Shown piece after piece: positions 4,739 through 35,191 of a DNA stretch of 40,673 nucleotides. Positions within the stretch are counted from its first letter, which is position 1; each line of letters starts with the position of its first letter. A program made the position numbers and the translations under genes. The notes under the pieces are model-generated. The model saw only the letters and a list, made by a program, of their open reading frames with translations. It ran no database searches and had not been told where the DNA came from. Origin of the DNA: a virus. The stretch lies in UHGV virus genome UHGV-1386588; one strand, given 5' to 3'.

Positions 4739-5092
4739 TTATGCCTCGCTTGTTACAGTCGTCTGGCCGTAGATTGTGTCAATGGAGGAAGTGAAGGTGA
4801 CGCGACGGCTGGTGCCGTCATAATTGGTATCGAAGGAAAGAATCGACAGAACGCCCGGTGTATCCTGTATGCGTTCGCGTATAGCCAGGATGTAGACATC
4901 TGATCGCTGCTTCCCAAGCACTGACTGAACATACGGCGTGCCTTCCGTCAGATCGAGAAACCACTGACCGCGCCACAGCTCGAAACGGGTTTTTACGGCC
5001 TGGGCGACACATTCCGGACTGTCGATAAGGAAAGTATCGTCACCCTGGCCGAAAGTGTAATCGCCTTCAGTATCTTCGCGACGGTATCGCAT
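4739..5092 (-). CDS. baseplate protein (Mu gp46 / GPW-like)
   Basis: 117 aa; ATG at 5092 overlaps the stop of the spike gene; position between spike and J-like genes. Confidence 0.6.
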   Translation of the reverse strand: MRYRREDTEGDYTFGQGDDTFLIDSPECVAQAVKTRFELWRGQWFLDLTEGTPYVQSVLGKQRSDVYILAIRERIQDTPGVLSILSFDTNYDGTSRRVTFTSSIDTIYGQTTVTSEA

Positions 5093-5832
5093 TATTGCGG
5101 CCCTCCGGTAGTTCCCCCGCCAGTCTGTACTCCGCCATGTTTATGCGTGGCGACACTGATACCAGAAGCTGTTACGTCATTCGTTACCGTCACCGGCCCA
5201 AGCATCGTCGCAGTACCGCCGCTTTCTCCCATTCCCTGAGACAGGTTACCGTTAATCGTTACGTTGCCGTTCAGCGTGATAGTCGGGGATGTGATTGTCG
5301 TTCCACCCTCAGCCGTAGCCGTAAGCTTGCCCGGCGTTTTAACGGTGATGTTATGCCCTGCTGCGACCTCTACGAACGCCGAGCCATCATCGGTTCGCAG
5401 CTGCGCGGCGCTGGTACTGATACCGCTGATTTTCTGCGCTTGCGACTGCGGGCCAACGATGGCGAACGCATCAGATAAGTCATGCTGGCGCGGGTCGACG
5501 GTCTCCTGAACGCCGCCGCTCTGCCACCAGAAATCGATGCAACGGTCGGCAAAGATCAGCAGGCACTCGTCGCCTTCTTTTACCGGAAAGGTCAGCGTGC
5601 AACCGCCGCCGCGCGGGAAGATAACCGGCACATCCACCAGCGGTTTTAATTCGGTGGAGCCATCGCCAACAATACCGCGAAGCGCTACCTCTACTGTGCA
5701 GGTAACAGTGTCAGGATCGAACGACTGAATGATGCCGGGCATCGCTACGCGCATCTGGGTAGACACCGAATCGGCAATGGCCTGCGCGGTCTGCTGCTCA
5801 CCGCCGATCTGTGATTGAGTTGGAATTGGCAT
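5092..5832 (-). CDS. baseplate central spike protein (gpV / Mu gp45-like)
   Basis: 246 aa; Gly/Thr-rich C-terminal beta-helix-like repeats ending SVATHKHGGVQTGGGTTGG (His-containing apex motif typical of gpV spikes). Confidence 0.8.
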   Translation of the reverse strand: MPIPTQSQIGGEQQTAQAIADSVSTQMRVAMPGIIQSFDPDTVTCTVEVALRGIVGDGSTELKPLVDVPVIFPRGGGCTLTFPVKEGDECLLIFADRCIDFWWQSGGVQETVDPRQHDLSDAFAIVGPQSQAQKISGISTSAAQLRTDDGSAFVEVAAGHNITVKTPGKLTATAEGGTTITSPTITLNGNVTINGNLSQGMGESGGTATMLGPVTVTNDVTASGISVATHKHGGVQTGGGTTGGPQ

Positions 5833-5837
5833 AAAAA

Positions 5838-5866
5838 CCCCATAAAAAAACCAGCCGAAGCTGGTT
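5838..5866 (-). terminator. rho-independent terminator (minus strand) between moron and spike gene
   Basis: Stem AACCAGC / GCTGGTT with CGAA loop, followed on the minus strand by TTTTTTATGGGGTTTTTAT. Confidence 0.7.
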
Positions 5867-6043
5867 TGGTATCAATTACTAAGCTACATCAGTGTGAAGT
5901 AAGGCTTTTCCGCTGCAATGGCACACATTCACAAGGTGTATTAGGATATGTTTGCAACAAGTAAGCATTAAAAATCAATTTCAGCCATGAAGCCGCCATA
6001 GAGTGGACCTGCACCATCGCATTCTTGACTACAGGAGTAACAA

Positions 6044-6334
6044 ATGGGATTTAGATTTCGCAAAAGAATCCGGATTGCGCCCGGACTCGCGATCAACATT
6101 AGTAAAAGCGGAGTAAGCACTTCAATTGGTGGTAAAGGTTCCACCATTAACATCGGGAAAAAAGGCGTAAAGATGACAAATGGCCTTCCCGGCACGGGGC
6201 TGTCGCATACCACTAACCTTTACTCTCCCGGGAAATCGACAGAAAAAAAACAACTTACTCATAAGCAAAAAATAATTAGAAACATCCTGTTCGTAATTAT
6301 TGTGTTTATTATAATTAAAGCTCAATATTTTTGA
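6044..6334 (+). CDS. small membrane-anchored protein, DUF4236-like N-terminus
   Basis: ATG at 6044 with strong RBS (ACAGGAGTAACAA-ATG); N-terminus MGFRFRKRIRIAPGLAINISKSGVSTSIGGKG matches my recollection of the DUF4236 signature; C-terminal hydrophobic helix ILFVIIVFIIIKA; transcribed opposite to the tail operon. Confidence 0.65.
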   Translation: MGFRFRKRIRIAPGLAINISKSGVSTSIGGKGSTINIGKKGVKMTNGLPGTGLSHTTNLYSPGKSTEKKQLTHKQKIIRNILFVIIVFIIIKAQYF

Positions 6335-6339
6335 CGCAT

Positions 6340-6370
6340 GCCCGCCTATCTGGCGGGCTATTTTACTTTT
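6340..6370 (+). terminator. rho-independent terminator after the DUF4236-like gene
   Basis: Stem GCCCGCC / GGCGGGC (loop TATCT) followed by TATTTTACTTTT; overlaps the stop codon of the convergent lipoprotein gene. Confidence 0.7.
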
Positions 6371-7236
6371 CGGCAGTCGTATGTTGCATACTGACGCGGC
6401 GAATCCATGCTGGCTTGCAACCACTGTGCGTTGAGAATGGCTTTGCCGTTTCGATTGATGTACTCAAGACCAACCCAGCGGCCAGGCTGGTCAGTATCAA
6501 CCATCCACTCCATTTTGACGTTATCCGGCTCACGGTTTGTACTGCCACCTGTACCAATTGGAGTAATTTTTTGCGTCTCTGGTTTCACGCCATTAATTCT
6601 GGCCCAACCATCAGCAGACGACAGGTCTATCGTATAAGGCCCACAAGTAGTCTTGTAGTTCACACCAAGTTTTTCGTTGCTGTGTGCTTTTTTGCTTTTT
6701 TCGTAATCGGCCTTCGCTACATCATTCATCTTTTGATAGATAGCAGGCTGCTGCAAAGAAAAATCATTTAGCCTCTTAACAAAAACCTCACGTGAAACCT
6801 CTGCAAGGCCCATTGGTTTTCTGTCAATGGTGTAGTCATCATATATCTTTGATATTACAGTTAATGATGAAAGATTTTTAGCTAAGTTATTTTCAAAGTT
6901 AAGGTAATTTAGCGGAGAATTATCTCTTACATCAATAGCCCCAACGCCACCGGTACCGTACTCATGATATGCAGCATAAAAAACAGGGATCATCTCTGGC
7001 TTTTTATTAATCGCCTTAATCAACCCTTCGGGACCGCAAGATTCCCCACTCCAGTCGATAAGCGACTTACCTTTCGATTGCCATGTTTGGCAATCGTCTG
7101 CCGATAAGATTAAAATTGGCTGCCACCCCGGGCGTTTTTTGTAACTAACATTCTTATCAGAATTGAAGCCTGCATTTGCGCATCCAGAAACGAGCAGCAC
7201 CGACAGGAAAAGCACACTGTATCGAAGTCCATTCAT
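6358..7236 (-). CDS. putative outer-membrane lipoprotein (moron)
   Basis: ATG at 7234-7236 gives MNGLRYSVLFLSVLLVSGC: n-region with Arg, hydrophobic core, lipobox LVSG-C, Ala at +2; 292 aa; no family recognised; AT-rich relative to flanking tail genes. Confidence 0.7.
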   Translation of the reverse strand: MNGLRYSVLFLSVLLVSGCANAGFNSDKNVSYKKRPGWQPILILSADDCQTWQSKGKSLIDWSGESCGPEGLIKAINKKPEMIPVFYAAYHEYGTGGVGAIDVRDNSPLNYLNFENNLAKNLSSLTVISKIYDDYTIDRKPMGLAEVSREVFVKRLNDFSLQQPAIYQKMNDVAKADYEKSKKAHSNEKLGVNYKTTCGPYTIDLSSADGWARINGVKPETQKITPIGTGGSTNREPDNVKMEWMVDTDQPGRWVGLEYINRNGKAILNAQWLQASMDSPRQYATYDCRKVK

Positions 7237-7248
7237 GTTCTTATACAC

Positions 7249-8316
7249 TCAACCTCCTCCTGAACGAGCTATAGTCGCCTGGCTAATCAGATCACGAGCA
7301 CCACGCGCAAAACACATTAAATCCATGTACCACGCCTGACCTCTAGTGTCGCCAGTATAGTCGATAGCTTTGACGATATAAACGCCATCCGTCGCAATGC
7401 TGGCTGCCTGTGACGTCGTGCCGGTCAGCACGCGGTTGCCGTTCTCTTCTGTTTCGGTGATACGCCCGGGCGACTGTGCTATTTCGCTATTGCCGAGCGT
7501 GGCGCGGTACACCGAAGCCTGATCGAGCTGGATAAGGCCATTGATGCGGATGTTCGGGTTTATCAGGCACCGCACGTTTACGCCGCCGCCCATCGTCTGC
7601 TGCGGCATACCGATCAGGCCAGTATCTGCATTCAACACAATGGCTTCGTGAATATATTTATCCTCCGGCACCATCTGGACCTGACCATCCACCAGCTGCC
7701 ATGTCGCTTTGCACTGCGCAGCAATATTATCCATCACGTTACGGGTGGATGAGTAAATCGCGCGGCCACGAGGAAAGACGGTATCTGGAAAGTCTCCGGT
7801 AATGCCCTGCGTTACGCCGAACGCGTTGAAATCCTGCATAGTCGCCCGGTGCAGGTCCGCAACGGTATAACCAGCGGCAAGCGTGGTGATGGTGGTCGCA
7901 TAGAGAAACGCTTCGTGATCACCAATGGCCTGAATCAACACCCAGGAATCCGTAATGTTGTCCTTCCCGGTGACGGTGAAGCGAATATCACCGTCAAATA
8001 TCAGGCCGTAGTTCTGACCGTTCACCTGCCCTACCTGGTCTGGTGAAATCTCCAGGGCGACACCAACCTGGCTCGCATCAACATCCGGCGCTATACCGTC
8101 ATACCCGGCAATGATGCGAATTTTGGCAAACTCCTGCCCAAGTATCTTGTTCGTGGTATCGGTCGAAAGGTTGTAAATTTTCACGTTCGCCACGCGCGGC
8201 CAGCGTGTGTCTGCCCACTCGATCTGGAACGTGACCTTAAAGTTAGACAGGGAAACGCCCTGCCCGTTCTGGTCCAACAGTTGCAGCTCAAAATGGCGCA
8301 TCCAGTTAAGAGACAT
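7249..8316 (-). CDS. baseplate hub / tail protein (Mu gp44 / P2 gpD-like position)
   Basis: 355 aa structural ORF in the tail module, ATG at 8316, tightly packed with neighbours; assignment by synteny. Confidence 0.6.
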   Translation of the reverse strand: MSLNWMRHFELQLLDQNGQGVSLSNFKVTFQIEWADTRWPRVANVKIYNLSTDTTNKILGQEFAKIRIIAGYDGIAPDVDASQVGVALEISPDQVGQVNGQNYGLIFDGDIRFTVTGKDNITDSWVLIQAIGDHEAFLYATTITTLAAGYTVADLHRATMQDFNAFGVTQGITGDFPDTVFPRGRAIYSSTRNVMDNIAAQCKATWQLVDGQVQMVPEDKYIHEAIVLNADTGLIGMPQQTMGGGVNVRCLINPNIRINGLIQLDQASVYRATLGNSEIAQSPGRITETEENGNRVLTGTTSQAASIATDGVYIVKAIDYTGDTRGQAWYMDLMCFARGARDLISQATIARSGGG

Positions 8317-9228: not shown

Positions 9229-11243
9229 TATCTCGGTCCTGCGGGGAGTTGCTGGGTTAACTGTGAATTCACGCCCTTTTGACGATCAACAGTCAAACGG
9301 GCAGCCTCGCGCGGATCGGAAACGCCGTGGATGTTAATATTCGTTTCCTGCTGAATCACCGGGGCGCTGGTGGGCATGTTGCTCATTACTTTCGGAATGT
9401 AGTTACGCGTTTCCTGCGGCATTAACCCCATGCCATAGCGCTTAACATTCCCGATCCCCCAGTTATATGATGCCAGTGCTTTGCTAAGGTCTCCGCCGTT
9501 CTGCCGCAACAGCTGGCTGAGGTACTTAGCTGCGGCCTGAGCTGACTTTTGCGGGTCGAATACATCGTTTCCGCGAAGGCCCATGTCGCGCGCCGTACCA
9601 TCCATAAACTGAAACAGACCTTTAGCGCCAGCGCCTGAAACGGCGAACTGATTACCGCCAGATTCCGTTATGGCCACACTGCGCAATAACCCCTCCGGAA
9701 GCCGGTAGAGCTGTTCCAGGTTGGTAAGCATCGGCTGCATCCATCCCAGCAGTTCAGAGCCTGCTTTGGTTGGCTGTGGCCGCTTAACTGACTGGCCGAG
9801 CTGTTCAGGCTCATCATCACCGAACCAGCCGCGCACCGTTCGGCCCACGCTGCGAGGATCGAATCCCCAGTGCTCTTTAATCCAGTCGGCGGTACCGTTG
9901 GCGCTGTCTGTTACCATCGGCATCGCTGACGGATTTTCGCTGCCCTGATTTAGCAGCTGTTTGCCTATACTAGCGGCCTGCGCCCAGTTTCCATCTTTTA
10001 TGGCATTCAGCAAATCAGCGATCATGTTCAGCATCTTGCCGAACTCACCCATTTGCGAAATGAAGTTGCTAAAATCCCACTTTAGGGACCATGACTTGGG
10101 GTCAATACCGAGCAACTTAGCCAGCGCTTTTGTCAGGTCCGTAACAGTCTTTTTCAGGTCACCAATCATTTTGACGGCCTGATCAATTTCAGTCTTCCAT
10201 TTCCCCCAGTCAATCAGGCTTTTGCCACCTTCTTTCCACGTCTGGTAATCATCCAAGAGCAGACCAAGTGCAATAATAAGCGTCGTTATCATGCCCAAGG
10301 GTGATGACATGAAAGCGGTATTTAGCAGCCGCCATGCAACCAACAGCCCACTGAACAATGCGATAAGCTGCTGCGTGGCTGGGTTCAGCTTTTTGAACCA
10401 GGCGATCACACCCTCAACAGCTTGCCCAGTTCGCCATAACACGCGGGTAATCGCGTCACCTGCCCAGAGAATTCCTTTGATGATCTTCGTGATGACCGCT
10501 TCAATCTTCGGCCAGTTGTCGAGTATCTGCCTGCGGAAGTTATCAATACTGCCAGCAAGGCCACCAGCTAGGTTAGAGCCAATCTTGTCTTTCGCCTGTC
10601 CAAGCGTCATCGTCAGATTACGCATGGAGGTCATGAAAATATTGGACTGTTTAGCCGCTGACTCAGCATTAAAACCAATACGCTTTGCCGTCAACGCGTA
10701 CTCAGAACTGAGCTGCCCCATCCCTCTGCGCATCGCCATCAGCGTGTTTTCATCGATGCCAAGCATCTGCGCGTATTGTTTCGCGCGGTAATACGGCATG
10801 TTGTTGAGCTTTTGCCCAACGCCAGTAAAGATGGCCGCAGTATCACGCATCTTTCCGCTGGCATCGCGGGTCTGTACGCCCAGACGGTTCAGGAACCCTT
10901 CCGCCCCCGGATTGCTACGCATGAAACCAGCCAACCCTTCAAGAGAGGACATGGCCGACTCGGCGCTGGCACCGGTTTGCGATGCGGCATAGCCCAGCGC
11001 TTTGATGCCCTGGACGCTGGCCCCCGTCCGCTGGGATGCCCAGTAAATTTTATCCAGACCATTCGCGATCTGGGTGGTAAATCCGACAATGCTAAGCGCT
11101 GAGCCTTTCACCACCGCGCCGACCTTCAGAACGTTCGCGGTAACGCCTTTCAGCACGGCTTCAAACTTATTAGCGCCAGCCTGATCGATATCGAATCCCA
11201 GCGAAACAAGGAAATCTTTAATCGTATCTGCGTTACCGCTCAT
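9228..11243 (-). CDS. tail tape measure protein with C-terminal lytic transglycosylase (SLT) domain
   Basis: 671 aa, between chaperone and baseplate genes; alpha-helical/hydrophobic middle; C-terminal ITESGGNQFAVSGAGAKGLFQFMDGTARDMGL is an SLT-type catalytic-Glu/GLxQ motif. Confidence 0.85.
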   Translation of the reverse strand: MSGNADTIKDFLVSLGFDIDQAGANKFEAVLKGVTANVLKVGAVVKGSALSIVGFTTQIANGLDKIYWASQRTGASVQGIKALGYAASQTGASAESAMSSLEGLAGFMRSNPGAEGFLNRLGVQTRDASGKMRDTAAIFTGVGQKLNNMPYYRAKQYAQMLGIDENTLMAMRRGMGQLSSEYALTAKRIGFNAESAAKQSNIFMTSMRNLTMTLGQAKDKIGSNLAGGLAGSIDNFRRQILDNWPKIEAVITKIIKGILWAGDAITRVLWRTGQAVEGVIAWFKKLNPATQQLIALFSGLLVAWRLLNTAFMSSPLGMITTLIIALGLLLDDYQTWKEGGKSLIDWGKWKTEIDQAVKMIGDLKKTVTDLTKALAKLLGIDPKSWSLKWDFSNFISQMGEFGKMLNMIADLLNAIKDGNWAQAASIGKQLLNQGSENPSAMPMVTDSANGTADWIKEHWGFDPRSVGRTVRGWFGDDEPEQLGQSVKRPQPTKAGSELLGWMQPMLTNLEQLYRLPEGLLRSVAITESGGNQFAVSGAGAKGLFQFMDGTARDMGLRGNDVFDPQKSAQAAAKYLSQLLRQNGGDLSKALASYNWGIGNVKRYGMGLMPQETRNYIPKVMSNMPTSAPVIQQETNINIHGVSDPREAARLTVDRQKGVNSQLTQQLPAGPR

Positions 11244-26082: not shown

Positions 26083-26847
26083 CTATCGCGTGACTTTGTT
26101 CAACATCTGGTTTGCGTACTCTTCCTGCTTGATGCACTCACCTACCAGACTTTCGAAAAAATCCTTGTAAGACCTGCGCCACGTGGTTTCAGGTATATCC
26201 ATCACCGTTACGCAGATGTATTTACGGACGCTATCAGGTAGCAATCTGGCATAACCACGCCCATTGCAGCGCGTACAGGTTTTATATGCAGGAACGCCGC
26301 GCTGTAGAATAGTTTTCTCTTTGTCTAATACTGTTCCTTTGCCATTGCACTGGCATGCGTTGGTCAGAGCACCCTTCCCTTTGCATTTGTGGCAAAGCAC
26401 CTTAACCATCTCTCTTTTTTCGCTAAGGTGTGGCTGTCCGATATGCTTCATCGTCATTACTTCAGCTTCGACAAACTTATTTCCATTGCAGCAGTCGCAC
26501 GTTCTGGTACTGGCGGCGCTCCGGGAGTAATCAGCAAAGGCGAAAGTTGCGAGAACTTGCATTACCTTTGGCTTAACATCGCTCTCAAGCTTGCGTAAGG
26601 CGGCAACCTTATCGCAGTGCTCAATTGCATATTTGGTCAGCAGGTCAATTGCTCGCTCGCGATCGTAATCGCTGATATCCATCTTACCGAGGAATGCACT
26701 GAACCCGAGATCAGCCCGGCTCTGTGTCATTCCGATCGCCGCCATAATGTCAGTGCCGGTTAATGAGTCAGATGCGGTTGCACGTGGAGCGTCGCTAATC
26801 ATCGTTGACTTCGCGAAGTGGTATTTCACTGTGTTTTCGAGATTCAT
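26083..26847 (-). CDS. Q: late-gene antiterminator Q (phage 82/21-type, Cys-rich)
   Basis: 254 aa upstream of the lysis cassette; multiple CxxC clusters (CDCCNGNK, CHKCKGKG, CQCNGKG, CTRCNGRG) typical of zinc-binding Q proteins; AGGAG RBS. Confidence 0.75.
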   Translation of the reverse strand: MNLENTVKYHFAKSTMISDAPRATASDSLTGTDIMAAIGMTQSRADLGFSAFLGKMDISDYDRERAIDLLTKYAIEHCDKVAALRKLESDVKPKVMQVLATFAFADYSRSAASTRTCDCCNGNKFVEAEVMTMKHIGQPHLSEKREMVKVLCHKCKGKGALTNACQCNGKGTVLDKEKTILQRGVPAYKTCTRCNGRGYARLLPDSVRKYICVTVMDIPETTWRRSYKDFFESLVGECIKQEEYANQMLNKVTR

Positions 26848-33603: not shown

Positions 33604-34146
33604 TCACATAACCCCCAACATCGAAGTGACCATAGCCATCAGCGGCGCGGTCAGATCCGGGTCGACACGGAACATCTCTACAATCCCCTCACTGAGTTCC
33701 TTGAGCTTCTGGTGACGCGGGGCGTTCATCGCAACGGCCACTTTCGCCTCGCTCGTTTCTTTCTCAAGTCGAGCTAAGCGGGACATAAAACTGTCCTCTG
33801 GAAGAAGTCGATGGCGATACTCCAGCGGCAAAACGGCCATGATTGCGGGCGTCAGCTGGCGCACGTTCTCGCGGTACTGCTCAGAGTCGAAGCGGTTATC
33901 CAGGAAGCGGAACAGCTTCTGGCGCGCCCGGCTGATGTCGTCCGGAAAGCTGATGGCGGTCCCGCCCTGCTCCCGGTATTCGTTGATGATCAGCGCTGAC
34001 ACCACGTCCTGATTATCCAGCGCCGATGACCAGGCACGGACCGCATCGCGGATCTTTTCGTGGTCCGGCGTCGCTTTAGCTTGAGCGCGGTTTATCATCG
34101 CTCCCGGGTGTATTCCGGTATTGTGTTGATACGCAAGTGAATGCAT
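33604..34146 (-). CDS. YdaT-like protein (cII-position regulator / putative toxin domain)
   Basis: 180 aa, ATG at 34146 with AAGGGA RBS, directly downstream of the cro-like gene; segment LTPAIMAVLPLEYRHRLLP resembles E. coli Rac YdaT as I recall it. Confidence 0.5.
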   Translation of the reverse strand: MHSLAYQHNTGIHPGAMINRAQAKATPDHEKIRDAVRAWSSALDNQDVVSALIINEYREQGGTAISFPDDISRARQKLFRFLDNRFDSEQYRENVRQLTPAIMAVLPLEYRHRLLPEDSFMSRLARLEKETSEAKVAVAMNAPRHQKLKELSEGIVEMFRVDPDLTAPLMAMVTSMLGVM

Positions 34147-34163: not shown

Positions 34164-34397
34164 TTAGGCCGCAGTATCACGCGGCGATGCGAATACCAGG
34201 CTTTCTTTTAGGACCGGAGCCTGGCGGTGAAAATTCTTCGTGCCTTTCTCGATAGCAGATGCCATTTCTGGAGATGCCCGGCGATTTCCGTAGGCGATCT
34301 GGTCCAGGTAACCTGGCGTCGTGTTAGCCAACTTTGCGAGCTGCGCCCATTCGTCGGTAGTGGCGGCCTTGCGCCAGCGGTGTAGTTCAGTGCTCAT
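34164..34397 (-). CDS. cro: Cro-like HTH repressor (YdaS/Cro family)
   Basis: 77 aa, ATG at 34397 with GGAGA RBS; HTH DEWAQLAKLANTTPGYLDQIAYGNRR; divergent from the cI gene across the operator region. Confidence 0.75.
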   Translation of the reverse strand: MSTELHRWRKAATTDEWAQLAKLANTTPGYLDQIAYGNRRASPEMASAIEKGTKNFHRQAPVLKESLVFASPRDTAA

Positions 34398-34513
34398 TGG
34401 TGTCTCCGGGTGAGTCGTTTGATTTGGAGTTTAGCGTTATGCTAAATACTACGCAAGCATCATTTAGCAATTTGCACATTTATCATTTTGCTAAAAGCAG
34501 TAACAATGCAGGT
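34398..34513. promoter_or_regulatory. OR operator / divergent promoter region (pR, pRM)
   Basis: Perfect 17-bp palindrome TTTAGCGTTATGCTAAA (34430-34446) and related site TTTATCATTTTGCTAAA (34479-34495) between cro and cI starts. Confidence 0.7.
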
Positions 34514-35191
34514 ATGGAAAATAAAGAAATCAGAAAAGCCAACCTGGAAGCGCTGTACGAGAAGCGTCAGCACGAGTCTGGAATGACCAAAGCGCAGTTT
34601 GCCGAGCTCATCGAGACAAGTCCGGCTGCGCTTAGCCAGCTACTGGGACCAAACCCTCATCGCAATATCGGCGATAAGATGGCTCGCAAAATTGAAACTG
34701 CGCTTGATCTGCCTTTTGGCTGGATGGATGTTTTACACGCCAGTGAAGAACCTTCGAACGTTGCATTTCGAGGACTGAACGAGACAAAAGGAAGTTATCC
34801 TGTAATCAGCTGGGTAAGCGCGGGGCAATGGATGGAAGCTGTAGAACCTTATCACCGAAGAGCGATAGATCGCTGGTATGACACGACTGTTGACTGCTCA
34901 GAAGATTCATTCTGGCTGGACGTTAAAGGGGATTCTATGACCTCCCCGGCTGGACTAAGCATACCCGAGGGAGCAGCGATACTTGTTGATCCTGAAGTCG
35001 AGCCGCGCAACGGAAAGCTGGTTGTCGCGAAGCTAGAAGGCGATAACGAAGCGACCTTTAAGAAGCTTGTAATCGATGCCGGCAGACGCTTCCTAAAGCC
35101 CCTTAACCCCGCATATCCAATGCTAGAAATTAATGGAAACTGCAAAATCATCGGCGTTGTGGTTGATGCCAAAATACTAAACATCCCATAA
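34514..35191 (+). CDS. cI: CI-type prophage repressor (HTH + S24 LexA-like peptidase domain)
   Basis: N-terminal HTH (MTKAQFAELIETSPAALSQLL); C-terminal S24 motifs (GDSM Ser, downstream Lys); start at ATG 34514 (MENKEIRK...) as upstream ATG 34439 lies inside the operator palindrome. Confidence 0.85.
   Translation: MENKEIRKANLEALYEKRQHESGMTKAQFAELIETSPAALSQLLGPNPHRNIGDKMARKIETALDLPFGWMDVLHASEEPSNVAFRGLNETKGSYPVISWVSAGQWMEAVEPYHRRAIDRWYDTTVDCSEDSFWLDVKGDSMTSPAGLSIPEGAAILVDPEVEPRNGKLVVAKLEGDNEATFKKLVIDAGRRFLKPLNPAYPMLEINGNCKIIGVVVDAKILNIP

What the first reader, a model, noticed from the sequence alone, without database searches (positions are those of the whole stretch)
5833..7248. AT-rich two-gene moron (outer-membrane lipoprotein + convergent DUF4236-like membrane protein) inserted between baseplate hub and spike genes
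The otherwise tightly packed tail operon is interrupted by about 1.4 kb of visibly lower GC. It holds a 292-aa lipoprotein with a canonical signal peptide and lipobox (LVSG-C, Ala at +2) and, on the opposite strand, a 96-aa protein with a DUF4236-like N-terminus and a C-terminal TM helix. Intrinsic terminators sit at 5838-5866 (minus) and 6340-6370 (plus). I recognise neither protein as a tail component. Tail-module morons commonly encode surface-acting functions such as superinfection exclusion, receptor masking or serum resistance, and the convergent pairing suggests the two may act together.
Basis: partly seen in the sequence, partly recalled or inferred. Interest (0 to 1): 0.7.

Follow-up and report, generated by a model that had tools for sequence, protein, structure and literature searches.

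The report
Accessory-gene hotspot in a phage tail operon
Between two baseplate genes of a temperate enterobacterial phage lies a swap-site for non-structural genes, here holding a secreted lipoprotein that copies an invariant motif of the phage's own tape-measure protein and an unrelated small membrane protein; both probably block entry of competing phages, though neither function has been tested.

Summary
Window 5833-7248 is a low-GC insert (0.43 against 0.56 in the flanks) between the baseplate hub and spike genes. It holds a 292/296-aa lipoprotein gene, a convergent 96-aa DUF4236 gene (Pfam E 1.8e-20) and two intrinsic terminators.

This is not one two-gene unit but a two-slot hotspot, present in 133 of 137 related loci.

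- **Slot 1**, directly after the hub stop codon, always encodes an exported protein, usually a ~115-aa periplasmic 8-stranded barrel. Here the barrel is fused behind a lipobox and a helical N-domain.
- **Slot 2** is swappable cargo: nothing, DUF4236, Phd/Doc, PD-Lambda-1/SNIPE, PDC-S42 and others.
- A conserved terminator immediately before the spike gene closes the site.
- Deeper relatives have hub and spike adjacent, with no terminator.

The N-domain contains a cysteine-flanked copy of the invariant juxtamembrane motif of the phage's own tape-measure protein (hhalign 94.6%, E 7e-8).

DUF4236 tail-anchored proteins recur as inserts in tail modules of unrelated phages, including the position of the HK97 gp15 moron.

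The best reading is two independent envelope-level superinfection-exclusion or defence genes. Function is inferred, not shown.

The parts
5833..7248 (.). Whole accessory-gene hotspot between baseplate hub and spike genes
   Evidence: GC is 0.43 against 0.56 in the flanks. The equivalent gap is 402-2771 bp and variable in 133 of 137 related loci.
6358..7248 (-). Slot-1 gene: outer-membrane lipoprotein, 292 aa from ATG 7236 or 296 aa from GTG 7248
   Evidence: ORF. Lipobox VSG-C with Cys19. The ORF is intact in relatives at 82-99% identity, with dN/dS 0.04-0.10. There are no Pfam, NCBIfam or PADLOC hits.
7180..7236 (-). Signal peptide and lipobox (residues 1-19; Cys19 is the lipidated residue, with Ala at +2)
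   Evidence: Read from the sequence. The SGC lipobox is conserved in 18 of 20 family members.
6685..7149 (-). All-helical N-domain (residues 30-184); a module also found fused to other C-termini
6997..7113 (-). Tape-measure-like motif LILSADDCQTWQSKGKSLIDW plus about 18 following residues (residues 42-80), bracketed by invariant Cys49 and Cys67
   Evidence: BLASTP gives 14/21 identities, E 3e-5, against the window's tape-measure protein residues 326-346. hhalign of the lipoprotein family against the tape-measure family gives probability 94.6%, E 7e-8, over 38 columns. DNA identity is only 51%, so this is not a recent duplication.
6364..6654 (-). C-terminal 8-stranded beta-barrel domain (residues 195-291), equivalent to phrog_3443; Cys198 and Cys288 are nearly invariant
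6044..6334 (+). Slot-2 cargo: DUF4236 tail-anchored small membrane protein (96 aa), with its own ribosome-binding site AGGAG
   Evidence: PF14020 E 1.8e-20. The model shows a six-strand beta-meander at residues 6-60 and a helix at 73-95. Residues 1-76 carry 15 K/R against 1 D/E. dN/dS is 0-0.05.
6340..6368 (+). Intrinsic terminator of the DUF4236 gene, lying between the two convergent stop codons
   Evidence: Seven G-C pairs followed by TATTTTACTT. Every DUF4236 cassette examined in this hotspot has its own hairpin with a T-tail.
5841..5867 (-). Conserved intrinsic terminator closing the hotspot, ending 8 nt upstream of the spike ATG
   Evidence: Found by the scan. A hairpin plus T-run lies at the same place in 125 of 133 loci, as 51 distinct hairpin sequences that keep their pairing. 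It is absent where hub and spike are adjacent.
7354..7382 (-). Candidate internal promoter for slot 1 inside the 3' end of the hub gene (TTTATA-17-TATACT); weak evidence
   Evidence: The scan scored it 9/12. The four-fold-degenerate ACT codon that supplies T6 of the -10 element is T in 90% of 60 distinct sequences, against 35-60% at neighbouring degenerate sites.
10206..10268 (-). Original motif in the tape-measure gene (residues 326-346, LGLLLDDYQTWKEGGKSLIDW), directly after the second transmembrane helix
   Evidence: The motif is invariant in more than 100 tape-measure proteins, including those only 39% identical elsewhere in this region.
7249..8316 (-). Left anchor: baseplate hub gene
   Evidence: phrog_196 baseplate hub, E 8e-84; PF22759 E217_GP41, E 4.9e-6 (26.4 bits, just below the cut-off of 27).
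5092..5832 (-). Right anchor: baseplate spike (gpV-type) gene
   Evidence: PF18352 E 8.9e-42 and the Apex motif E 3.5e-8.
26083..26847 (-). Q-type antiterminator upstream of the late operon; explains how late transcription can pass the hotspot terminators
   Evidence: PF03589 E 1.6e-43.

Best explanation
**What it is (shown).** Window 5833-7248 is one instance of a conserved accessory-gene hotspot between the baseplate hub and spike genes. The hotspot belongs to a large family of temperate, lambda-regulated, E217-type myoviruses of Enterobacterales.

It has two independent slots and a fixed right boundary.
- **Slot 1** abuts the hub stop codon and always encodes an envelope-exported protein. 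The ancestral form is a ~95-residue periplasmic 8-stranded barrel with two nearly invariant cysteines that probably form a disulfide.
- In this window the barrel is fused behind a lipoprotein signal and a helical N-domain. That domain displays a copy of the invariant motif that follows the membrane hairpin of the phage's own tape-measure protein. The copy lies between two invariant cysteines.
- **Slot 2** is exchangeable cargo. Here it is a DUF4236 protein: a very basic six-strand beta-sheet held on the cytoplasmic face of the inner membrane by a C-terminal helix. It is read from the opposite strand and has its own terminator.
- **The right boundary** is a conserved intrinsic terminator immediately before the spike gene.

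**How it most likely works (inferred).**
- In a lysogen, local promoters would express the slot genes, and the terminators would stop read-through into the baseplate genes.
- During lytic growth, Q-modified polymerase would read through those terminators.
- Both proteins probably act on incoming phages at the envelope, as superinfection exclusion.
- The lipoprotein would work in the periplasm. It would present a decoy of the tape-measure juxtamembrane motif and so disturb membrane insertion or channel formation by phages that carry that motif.
- The DUF4236 protein would work at the inner face of the membrane, where the genome enters, in the manner of HK97 gp15.
For: **Anatomy.**
- 133 of 137 related loci have the gap. 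Of these, 128 have a barrel gene right after the hub, 21 have the N-domain and 19 have DUF4236.
- Relatives with hub identity of 49% or less have hub and spike adjacent (gaps of 20-49 nt, or overlapping) and no terminator.
- The terminator is kept in 125 of 133 loci, as 51 distinct hairpins.

**Independence of the two genes.** They occur in mixed combinations and have discordant dS.

**Export.** Every slot-1 protein has an AxA signal peptide or a lipobox.

**Defence character of slot 2.** Cargo includes PD-Lambda-1 (E 2.8e-82), PDC-S42 (E 1.7e-36) and Phd/Doc. PD-Lambda-1 is SNIPE, a membrane nuclease that associates with tape-measure proteins during injection (PMC13190303).

**Shared motif with the tape-measure protein.**
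- BLASTP E 3e-5 and hhalign 94.6%, E 7e-8.
- The motif is invariant in more than 100 tape-measure proteins.
- It is retained in N-domain homologues only 35-40% identical.
- The similarity holds at protein level only.

**Precedents for exclusion that targets the tape-measure protein.**
- T4 Imm binds the domain following the transmembrane segment of the tape-measure protein (bioRxiv 10.64898/2026.03.06.709160).
- HK97 gp15 is a tail-operon moron that blocks DNA entry (PMC3594210).
- The target of the Ltp lipoprotein is the tape-measure protein (Bebeacua et al. 2013, seen only as a title in the reference list of PMC3952083).

**DUF4236 as a recurrent tail-module insert.** Six of 8 sampled diverged homologues lie in phage tail modules of three architectures. 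One lies at the chaperone/tape-measure junction, where the HK97 gp15 moron sits.

**Read-through.** A Q antiterminator is present in the window.

**Selection.** Both genes are under purifying selection.
Against: - There are no expression data and no phenotype data.
- No convincing sigma-70 promoter was found for DUF4236. For slot 1 there is only a weak candidate.
- The slot-1 gene abuts the hub stop codon, so it is probably also made late in infection. That would fit a lytic-cycle role as well.
- The shared motif covers only about 38 residues. Its function in tape-measure proteins is unknown.
- The decoy idea has no direct test here. No multimer modelling was available.
- Two of the 8 DUF4236 contexts are not in phage tail modules.
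Confidence: 0.55

Rival explanations
1. A single two-gene moron was acquired as a unit, and its convergent products, the outer-membrane lipoprotein and the DUF4236 membrane protein, work together as one system.
For: The two genes are adjacent and convergent, and they share a hairpin in the 23-nt gap between them. They co-occur in the window, L001, L005, L035-L038 and L041-L043.
Against: - DUF4236 is found with the short barrel protein in L002, L051, L052 and L144, and in several further E. coli records whose annotation shows DUF4236 but which match only about 58% of the query.
- The long lipoprotein is found without DUF4236 in L009, L016, L039, L040 and L044-L049.
- In the same genome pairs the lipoprotein has dS of 1.0-1.4 and DUF4236 has dS of 0.02-0.08.
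- DUF4236 homologues sit alone in lambda-like tail modules.
Confidence: 0.07
2. The slot-1 barrel is a periplasmic inhibitor of a cell-wall hydrolase, in the manner of PliC/MliC, PhiA or T4 Spackle. It would neutralise the lytic transglycosylase domain at the C-terminus of incoming tape-measure proteins. The N-domain would serve only as a tether or adaptor.
For: - The tape-measure protein of the window has an SLT domain (PF01464, E 1.3e-24).
- SLT-region matches are present in essentially all related loci.
- The barrel is a small periplasmic 8-stranded barrel with a pair of conserved cysteines.
Against: - There is no Pfam MliC, PliC or Ivy hit.
- This reading does not explain the conserved tape-measure motif in the N-domain.
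- Deeper relatives that keep the tape-measure motif (L143, L176, L153, L208) lack the barrel. I did not record whether their tape-measure proteins keep the SLT region.
Confidence: 0.15
3. A lysogenic-conversion factor for the host rather than an anti-phage function. The outer-membrane lipoprotein would alter surface properties such as serum resistance, adhesion or colicin resistance, as lambda Bor and Lom or Cor do.
For: The lipoprotein is predicted to be sorted to the outer membrane, because residue +2 is Ala. Tail-region morons such as lom and bor have such roles (background knowledge; PMC3594210).
Against: - The slot-1 protein family is present in prophages of plant, insect and environmental genera: Pantoea, Erwinia, Rahnella, Serratia, Kosakonia, Trabulsiella. 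That does not fit a function specific to an animal host.
- Most family members are soluble periplasmic proteins, not surface proteins.
- Slot-2 cargo is dominated by defence and toxin-antitoxin genes.
- This reading does not explain the tape-measure motif.
Confidence: 0.1
4. The slot-1 protein has a lytic-cycle role for the phage itself. Examples are periplasmic help in release, or protection of infected cells and debris from re-adsorption by progeny. On this reading it is simply part of the late operon.
For: Its start codon abuts the hub stop codon, and a GGAGG ribosome-binding site lies in the end of the hub gene. The gene is conserved in position across the family. Q-dependent read-through would express it late.
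Against: - A conserved terminator immediately downstream would be pointless for a purely late gene.
- GC is low, and alleles are swapped independently of the flanks.
- The gene is absent from deeper relatives with the same tail genes.
Confidence: 0.1

Closest known systems
HK97 gp15 moron (Cumby et al. 2012; reviewed in PMC3594210)
   Same: A small inner-membrane protein encoded by an insert inside the tail operon. It is expressed from the prophage and blocks genome entry in a way that depends on the phage tail. One DUF4236 homologue (P0179) lies at the same junction, between the tail chaperone and tape-measure genes.
   Different: gp15 belongs to the YebO family, with an N-terminal membrane segment. 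The protein here is DUF4236, with a basic beta-sheet and a C-terminal anchor. There is no sequence relation, and function here is untested.
Ltp lipoprotein of Streptococcus phage TP-J34 (PMC3952083; Bebeacua et al. 2013)
   Same: A prophage-encoded lipoprotein exposed outside the cytoplasmic membrane. It blocks DNA injection, and its target is the tape-measure protein.
   Different: Ltp comes from a Gram-positive host, is encoded in the lysogeny module and is built from two helix-turn-helix-like repeats. The protein here has a novel helical domain plus a beta-barrel, is encoded in the tail operon and resembles, rather than is known to bind, the tape-measure protein.
T4 Imm (bioRxiv 10.64898/2026.03.06.709160)
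   Same: An exclusion protein of a contractile-tailed phage. It binds the tape-measure domain lying just C-terminal to the transmembrane segment, which is the same region that the motif here comes from.
   Different: Imm is an integral inner-membrane protein of a lytic phage. There is no sequence or fold similarity, and binding has not been tested here.
Prophage-encoded defence hotspots of P2-like phages and P4-like satellites (bioRxiv 10.1101/2021.01.21.427644)
   Same: A fixed site between conserved phage genes holds diverse, exchangeable, low-GC defence cargo. Here the cargo includes PD-Lambda-1/SNIPE, PDC-S42 and Phd/Doc.
   Different: This is a different phage family and a different position: inside the baseplate gene cluster. 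The site also carries a permanent resident (an exported slot-1 protein) and a conserved closing terminator.
T5 Llp and lambdoid Cor
   Same: Small phage-encoded envelope proteins or lipoproteins whose genes lie next to the tail genes and which exclude phages of the same type.
   Different: Llp and Cor block the outer-membrane receptor FhuA. Nothing here points to a receptor, and the shared motif points to the tape-measure step.
SNIPE / PD-Lambda-1 (PMC13190303)
   Same: An inner-membrane-anchored protein with a positively charged cytoplasmic domain. It acts at the site of genome injection and associates with tape-measure proteins. A homologue occupies slot 2 of this same hotspot in L017.
   Different: [quoted passage not shown] The DUF4236 protein has 96 aa and no catalytic domain.

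Membership tests
Moron (Juhala/Hendrix definition as summarised in PMC3594210) | Present in some phages and absent at the same place in close relatives | tested here: met
   DUF4236 is present in 19 of 133 loci and the N-domain in 21 of 133. The barrel is absent only from relatives with hub identity of 49% or less.
Moron | Base composition differs from surrounding genes | tested here: met
   GC is 0.43 against 0.56 in the window. It is 0.38-0.47 against 0.49-0.57 in the 24 loci from the first survey in which both flanking genes were found.
Moron | Own terminator | tested here: met
   The DUF4236 terminator lies at 6340-6368 on the plus strand. The conserved hotspot terminator lies at 5867-5841 on the minus strand.
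Moron | Own promoter | tested here: inconclusive
   No consensus site was found upstream of DUF4236. Only a 9/12 candidate inside the hub gene was found for slot 1, with a hint of codon-level conservation.
Moron | Expression from the repressed prophage | not testable with these tools
   This needs RNA-seq or reporter data from a lysogen.
Pfam PF14020 (DUF4236) | Score above the Pfam gathering cut-off | tested here: met
   73.6 bits against a cut-off of 27, E 1.8e-20, covering profile positions 1-54 of 55.
Bacterial lipoprotein | Signal peptide with lipobox [LVI][ASTVI][GAS]C | tested here: met
   The sequence reads LLVSG-C19, preceded by a basic n-region and a hydrophobic core. The lipobox is conserved in 18 of 20 homologues. 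Lipidation itself cannot be tested here.
PHROG 3443 (unknown function) | HMM match | tested here: met
   Residues 194-292 match with E 1.4e-34, covering 94 of 115 profile positions.
Ltp-type exclusion lipoproteins | Ltp repeat domain | tested here: not met
   There is no Pfam hit of any kind for the lipoprotein, and no related fold in the PDB searches.
MliC/PliC/Ivy lysozyme-inhibitor families | Family HMM match, or a close fold match | tested here: not met
Known anti-phage defence systems (PADLOC-DB 2.0) | HMM match to a defence protein model | tested here: not met
   There are no hits for either protein at E<=0.1.
Prophage defence hotspot | Conserved flanking core genes, with variable cargo that includes recognised defence systems | tested here: met
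   The hub and spike anchors are present in 137 loci. Cargo includes PD-Lambda-1 (E 2.8e-82), PDC-S42 (E 1.7e-36) and Phd/Doc.
Virion/baseplate structural protein | No export signal; conserved wherever the baseplate module is conserved | tested here: not met
   All slot-1 proteins have Sec or lipoprotein signals. The gene is absent in L143, L150, L153, L176 and L208, which keep the hub and spike genes.

The most novel reading that the evidence does not exclude
The lipoprotein is a tape-measure decoy. It would be a periplasmic copy, held as a loop by a disulfide, of the invariant juxtamembrane motif DDYxTWKEGGKSLIDW. By competing for that motif's partner, or by co-assembling with incoming tape-measure proteins, it would block channel formation by any phage of this very large family. 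That would be exclusion by molecular mimicry of the injection machinery.

Separately, DUF4236 tail-anchored proteins would form a widespread and so far unrecognised class of inner-membrane entry blockers. They would have been recruited repeatedly into the tail modules of unrelated sipho- and myoviruses.
Probability: 0.3. Interest if true: 0.75.

Novelty: new variant of a known kind. Interest (0 to 1): 0.58.

Why it matters
- **A new defence hotspot.** It would define a previously undescribed site inside the baseplate gene cluster of a common family of enterobacterial prophages. More than 130 loci were sampled here. The site could be mined for new anti-phage genes, as the P2 and P4 hotspots were.
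- **Two testable candidates for blocking genome entry.** This is a step of infection for which few mechanisms are known.
  - A lipoprotein that copies an invariant tape-measure motif. It would also point to a function for that motif.
  - DUF4236, a widespread domain of unknown function. It now has a consistent genomic association with the part of the phage that delivers DNA.
- **An annotation error.** RefSeq currently truncates the long lipoprotein or calls it a pseudogene.

Tried and rejected
**Searches that led nowhere**
- Pfam, NCBIfam and PADLOC gave nothing for the lipoprotein.
- The afdb50 library was not available.
- The third homologue search, with a 62-aa N-domain fragment, returned a single protein. 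The wider distribution of the motif therefore could not be mapped that way.
- A literature search for DUF4236 found only one incidental mention.
- Rfam gave only sub-threshold matches: isrK at 17 bits over the terminator, and a riboswitch fragment.

**Ideas considered and rejected**
- *The N-domain is a degenerate SLT or lysozyme fold.* A weak BLASTP alignment to the SLT part of the tape-measure protein (E 0.19) suggested this. It was rejected because no lysozyme-like structure appears in either fold search.
- *The motif similarity is a recent intragenomic duplication.* Rejected: DNA identity is 51% and only 4 of 14 identical residues use the same codon.
- *The lipoprotein is an o-spanin.* Rejected on size, position and lack of an embedding gene.
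- *The lipoprotein is a pseudogene in E. coli, as RefSeq annotates it.* Rejected: the ORF is intact.
Full report
**1.

The hub-to-spike interval (5833-7248) has GC 0.43, against 0.56 for the two flanking genes. The sliding-window minimum is 0.38.

It contains two ORFs:
- A minus-strand ORF at 7236..6358, giving 292 aa. A GTG at 7248 gives 296 aa and abuts the hub stop codon.
- A plus-strand ORF at 6044..6334, giving 96 aa.

The first begins MNGLRYSVLFLSVLLVSG-C-AN. That is a textbook lipobox with Ala at +2, which predicts sorting to the outer membrane.

The second is a true DUF4236 protein (PF14020, 73.6 bits against a cut-off of 27). It has a predicted C-terminal helix.

- 6340-6358 (+) lies exactly between the two convergent stop codons.
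- 5867-5848 (-) ends 8 nt before the spike ATG.

The flanks are a baseplate hub (phrog_196, E 8e-84) and a gpV-type spike (PF18352, E 9e-42).

Both ORFs are under strong purifying selection against relatives. dN/dS is 0.04-0.10 for the lipoprotein and 0-0.05 for DUF4236.

**2. It is a two-slot hotspot, not a two-gene unit**

I collected related loci from four sources:
- E. coli genomes;
- one genome per species;
- viral contigs;
- contigs encoding DUF4236 homologues.

In 137 of these loci, hub and spike are found on one strand. 133 of the 137 have a gap of 402-2771 bp, with median 1209 bp. In the loci where I measured it, the gap is always low in GC.

*Slot 1.* Directly after the hub stop codon there is an exported protein. 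In 128 of the 133 loci it contains the domain that forms residues 194-292 of the window's lipoprotein (phrog_3443, E 1.4e-34). Usually it is a free-standing protein of ~111-123 aa with a classical AxA signal peptide.

*The long form.* This is a lipobox plus a ~160-residue N-domain plus the barrel. It occurs in 21 loci.

*Slot 2.* What lies between slot 1 and the spike varies:
- nothing (L010, L023);
- DUF4236 on the opposite strand (19 loci);
- Phd/Doc (L003, L011);
- a 128-aa secreted protein (L004, L009);
- a PD-Lambda-1 homologue (L017, E 2.8e-82);
- PDC-S42 (L013, E 1.7e-36);
- two-gene sets in L016, L021 and L026, with no Pfam or PADLOC hit for those tested (I read the smaller protein as HEPN-like from its sequence only);
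- a Clp-protease-like gene (L015).

*The two genes assort independently.* DUF4236 occurs with either the short or the long slot-1 form. The long form occurs with or without DUF4236.

*Their divergence is discordant.* In the same genome pairs:
- the lipoprotein gene has dS up to 1.0-1.4;
- hub and spike have dS of about 0.12-0.26;
- the DUF4236 cassette has dS of 0.02-0.08.

The modules therefore have separate histories.

**3. A conserved terminator closes the site, and the site is an old insertion**

A G+C-rich hairpin followed by a T-run lies within 60 nt of the spike ATG in 125 of the 133 loci. It occurs as 51 distinct sequences that keep their pairing, for example CCAGC/GCTGG, CCCGC/GCGGG and GCCGC/GCGGC. 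It is present even where slot 2 is empty.

Relatives whose hub is 49% identical or less (L153, L208, L143, L176, L150) have hub and spike adjacent, with gaps of 20-49 nt or overlapping. They have no barrel gene and no terminator.

The ancestral event was therefore insertion of a barrel gene with its terminator. Later cargo landed between the two.

The window encodes a Q-type antiterminator (26083-26847, PF03589 E 1.6e-43) and a CI-like repressor. That gives the classical lambdoid logic. Late, Q-modified transcription can pass these terminators. Transcripts from any local promoter in a lysogen would stop before the spike gene.

Promoters are the weak point.
- None was found for DUF4236.
- For slot 1 there is only a 9/12 match inside the hub gene, at 7382-7354.
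- The Thr codon that provides the last T of its -10 element is ACT in 90% of 60 distinct sequences. Neighbouring four-fold sites are 35-60% conserved.
- This is suggestive only.

**4. The lipoprotein**

*Distribution.* The long-form family is small. There are 19 clusters in the 5.8-billion-protein index. There are 66 representatives at E<=1e-3 among 1.84 billion when the profile of the whole protein is used, most of them short barrel proteins.

*Structure.* AlphaFold2 (pLDDT 80) gives an all-helical N-domain at residues 30-184 (pLDDT about 90) and an 8-stranded barrel at residues 195-291.
- Cys49 and Cys67 are invariant, and Cys198 and Cys288 are nearly so. This fits disulfides formed in the periplasm.

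*The N-domain is a mobile module.* It also occurs on 350-379-aa lipoproteins with a different C-terminal domain. One lies in slot 1 (L012). Others lie elsewhere in prophages, for example next to integrase genes in L059.

*A shared motif with the phage's own tape-measure protein.* Residues 42-62, LILSADDCQTWQSKGKSLIDW, match residues 326-346 of the window's tape-measure protein, LGLLLDDYQTWKEGGKSLIDW.
- BLASTP gives 14/21 identities, E 3e-5.
- A profile-profile comparison of the two families gives probability 94.6%, E 7e-8, over 38 columns.
- In the tape-measure protein the motif follows the second hydrophobic helix directly.
- It is the one invariant island of the mid-region in more than 100 tape-measure proteins. 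These include proteins only 39% identical around it, and proteins from the deeper relatives that lack slot 1.
- The conserved positions of the N-domain family (DD..T....GK.L..W) are exactly the motif positions. They persist in homologues only 35-40% identical.
- At DNA level the two segments are 51% identical, and 4 of 14 identical residues share a codon. The resemblance is therefore maintained at protein level and is not a recent copy.
- In the lipoprotein the motif is bracketed by the invariant Cys49 and Cys67.

**5. The DUF4236 protein**

*Architecture.* Homologues are numerous and share one layout: DUF4236, a variable low-complexity linker, and a hydrophobic C-terminal tail. The model is a six-strand beta-meander at residues 6-60 plus a helix at 73-95.

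*Topology.* Residues 1-76 carry 15 Lys/Arg and one acidic residue. By the positive-inside rule the sheet should sit on the cytoplasmic face of the inner membrane.

*Genomic context.* I sampled eight diverged homologues.
- Three lie in this same hub-spike hotspot (Hafnia, Klebsiella, Pluralibacter).
- Three lie in tail modules of siphoviruses:
  - between the tape-measure gene and gpM (Leclercia);
  - between gpK and gpJ (Pseudomonas syringae);
  - between the tail chaperone and tape-measure genes (a metagenomic contig). This is the junction where the HK97 gp15 moron sits (PMC3594210).
- One SH3-fused form lies in a Vibrio island that also contains DUF4238 and a restriction enzyme.
- One has an unclear context.

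Each cassette examined in the hub-spike hotspot has its own terminator.

**6. Mechanism**

*Shown:* the anatomy, the export signals, the independence of the two slots, the defence character of other cargo, the shared motif, and the Q antiterminator.

*Inferred:* both proteins act against incoming phages at the envelope.

Precedents make the tape-measure step a plausible target.
- T4 Imm binds the domain that follows the transmembrane segment of the tape-measure protein.
- HK97 gp15 blocks entry in a tail-dependent way.
- The target of the Ltp lipoprotein is the tape-measure protein (Bebeacua et al. 2013, seen only as a title in a reference list).
- SNIPE (PD-Lambda-1) associates with tape-measure proteins. 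A homologue occupies this very hotspot in L017.

For the lipoprotein, the most economical hypothesis is a periplasmic decoy of the tape-measure juxtamembrane segment. For DUF4236, it is a gp15-like block on the cytoplasmic face.

Section 7 of this report and the rival-explanations section list the alternatives:
- the barrel inhibits the SLT domain, like Spackle or PliC;
- the lipoprotein is a lysogenic-conversion factor;
- slot 1 has a lytic-cycle role;
- the two genes form an obligate pair.

None of these explains the motif. The last is contradicted by the distribution.

**7. Comparison and novelty**

Morons in tail operons and prophage defence hotspots are both known kinds. I found no description of the following:
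- this site, inside the baseplate cluster, with a permanent exported resident and a closing terminator;
- the tape-measure-motif lipoprotein;
- the association of DUF4236 with tail modules.

The only paper in the library that mentions DUF4236 does so incidentally. The phage collection holds only a few poorly annotated relatives: Citrobacter phage Omnitron and Hafnia phage yong1.

I rate this a new variant of a known kind. Interest is moderate to high, and it rests on testable but untested functions.

Noticed in passing
L001 3731-4621; L005 3759-4649 (E. coli RefSeq chromosomes NZ_CP133811.1, NZ_CP059283.1): RefSeq annotation truncates the intact 296-aa lipoprotein ORF to a 123-aa protein, or marks it as a partial pseudogene 'missing N-terminus'. 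This is probably because only the short barrel family is known to the pipeline.
   Followed up: yes
window 10206-10268 (-), and the tape-measure genes of L001-L223: The tape-measure motif [DE]DY.[TAV]WKEGG[KNQ]SLI.W, directly after the second hydrophobic helix, is essentially invariant in more than 100 tape-measure proteins. Their surrounding sequence falls to 39% identity. I know of no function for it.
   Followed up: partly
L017 (Pantoea dispersa), hotspot ORF 464-1693 after the hub: A 409-aa homologue of PD-Lambda-1/SNIPE (E 2.8e-82) occupies slot 2 of the same hotspot. It has an N-terminal membrane segment, a coiled coil and a T5orf172 nuclease domain. SNIPE is a system reported to act on injecting DNA through the tape-measure protein.
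   Followed up: partly
L016, L021, L026 hotspot cargo: A recurrent two-gene set: a 249-263-aa protein plus a 130-165-aa protein whose SRAYYSM.H-type motif I read as HEPN-like from the sequence alone. The members tested (from L016 and L021) have no Pfam or PADLOC hit. It is a candidate uncharacterised defence pair.
   Followed up: no
L014, L022, L015 hotspot cargo: Another recurrent pair: a ~149-aa protein plus a 108-156-aa coiled-coil protein with a C-terminal membrane helix and a Gly-rich stretch. PADLOC hits are weak and coiled-coil-driven only.
   Followed up: no
L004 2385-2771 and L009 (128-aa ORF after slot 1): A 128-aa protein with a signal peptide (MIRILLMLGMVLTSFIANA-EV...) occupies slot 2 in Citrobacter phage Omnitron and in an Enterobacter bugandensis prophage. 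It has no Pfam hit.
   Followed up: no
L012 (Serratia sp. PL17), 379-aa ORF directly after the hub: Here slot 1 holds a lipoprotein with a diverged N-domain and a different C-terminal domain in place of the barrel. This is the one case, among the loci whose ORFs I listed, of slot 1 without the barrel.
   Followed up: partly
window 7354-7382 (-): A promoter-like site lies inside the hub gene. The synonymous third base of its -10 element (ACT) is unusually conserved: 90%, against 35-60% at neighbouring sites. L124 and L153, in which no barrel gene was detected, have ACC instead.
   Followed up: partly
window 5845-5916 (-): A sub-threshold Rfam match to the prophage sRNA isrK (17.3 bits, E 0.86) overlaps the conserved terminator. 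It is probably just terminator similarity. The 176-nt spacer at 5868-6043 is conserved with the DUF4236 cassette.
   Followed up: no
window 26083-26847 (-), 34397-35191 (+), 33604-34146 (-): The window is a near-complete temperate phage with lambdoid control genes: a Q antiterminator, a CI-like S24 repressor and a YdaT-like gene. These are joined to an E217/PhiTE-type contractile tail, which makes it a mosaic type with few characterised isolates.
   Followed up: partly
L226 (Vibrio diabolicus): A 167-aa DUF4236-SH3 fusion lies in an array of small same-strand genes that includes DUF4238 and a PLD-type restriction enzyme. This looks like a defence island or integron cassette array.
   Followed up: no
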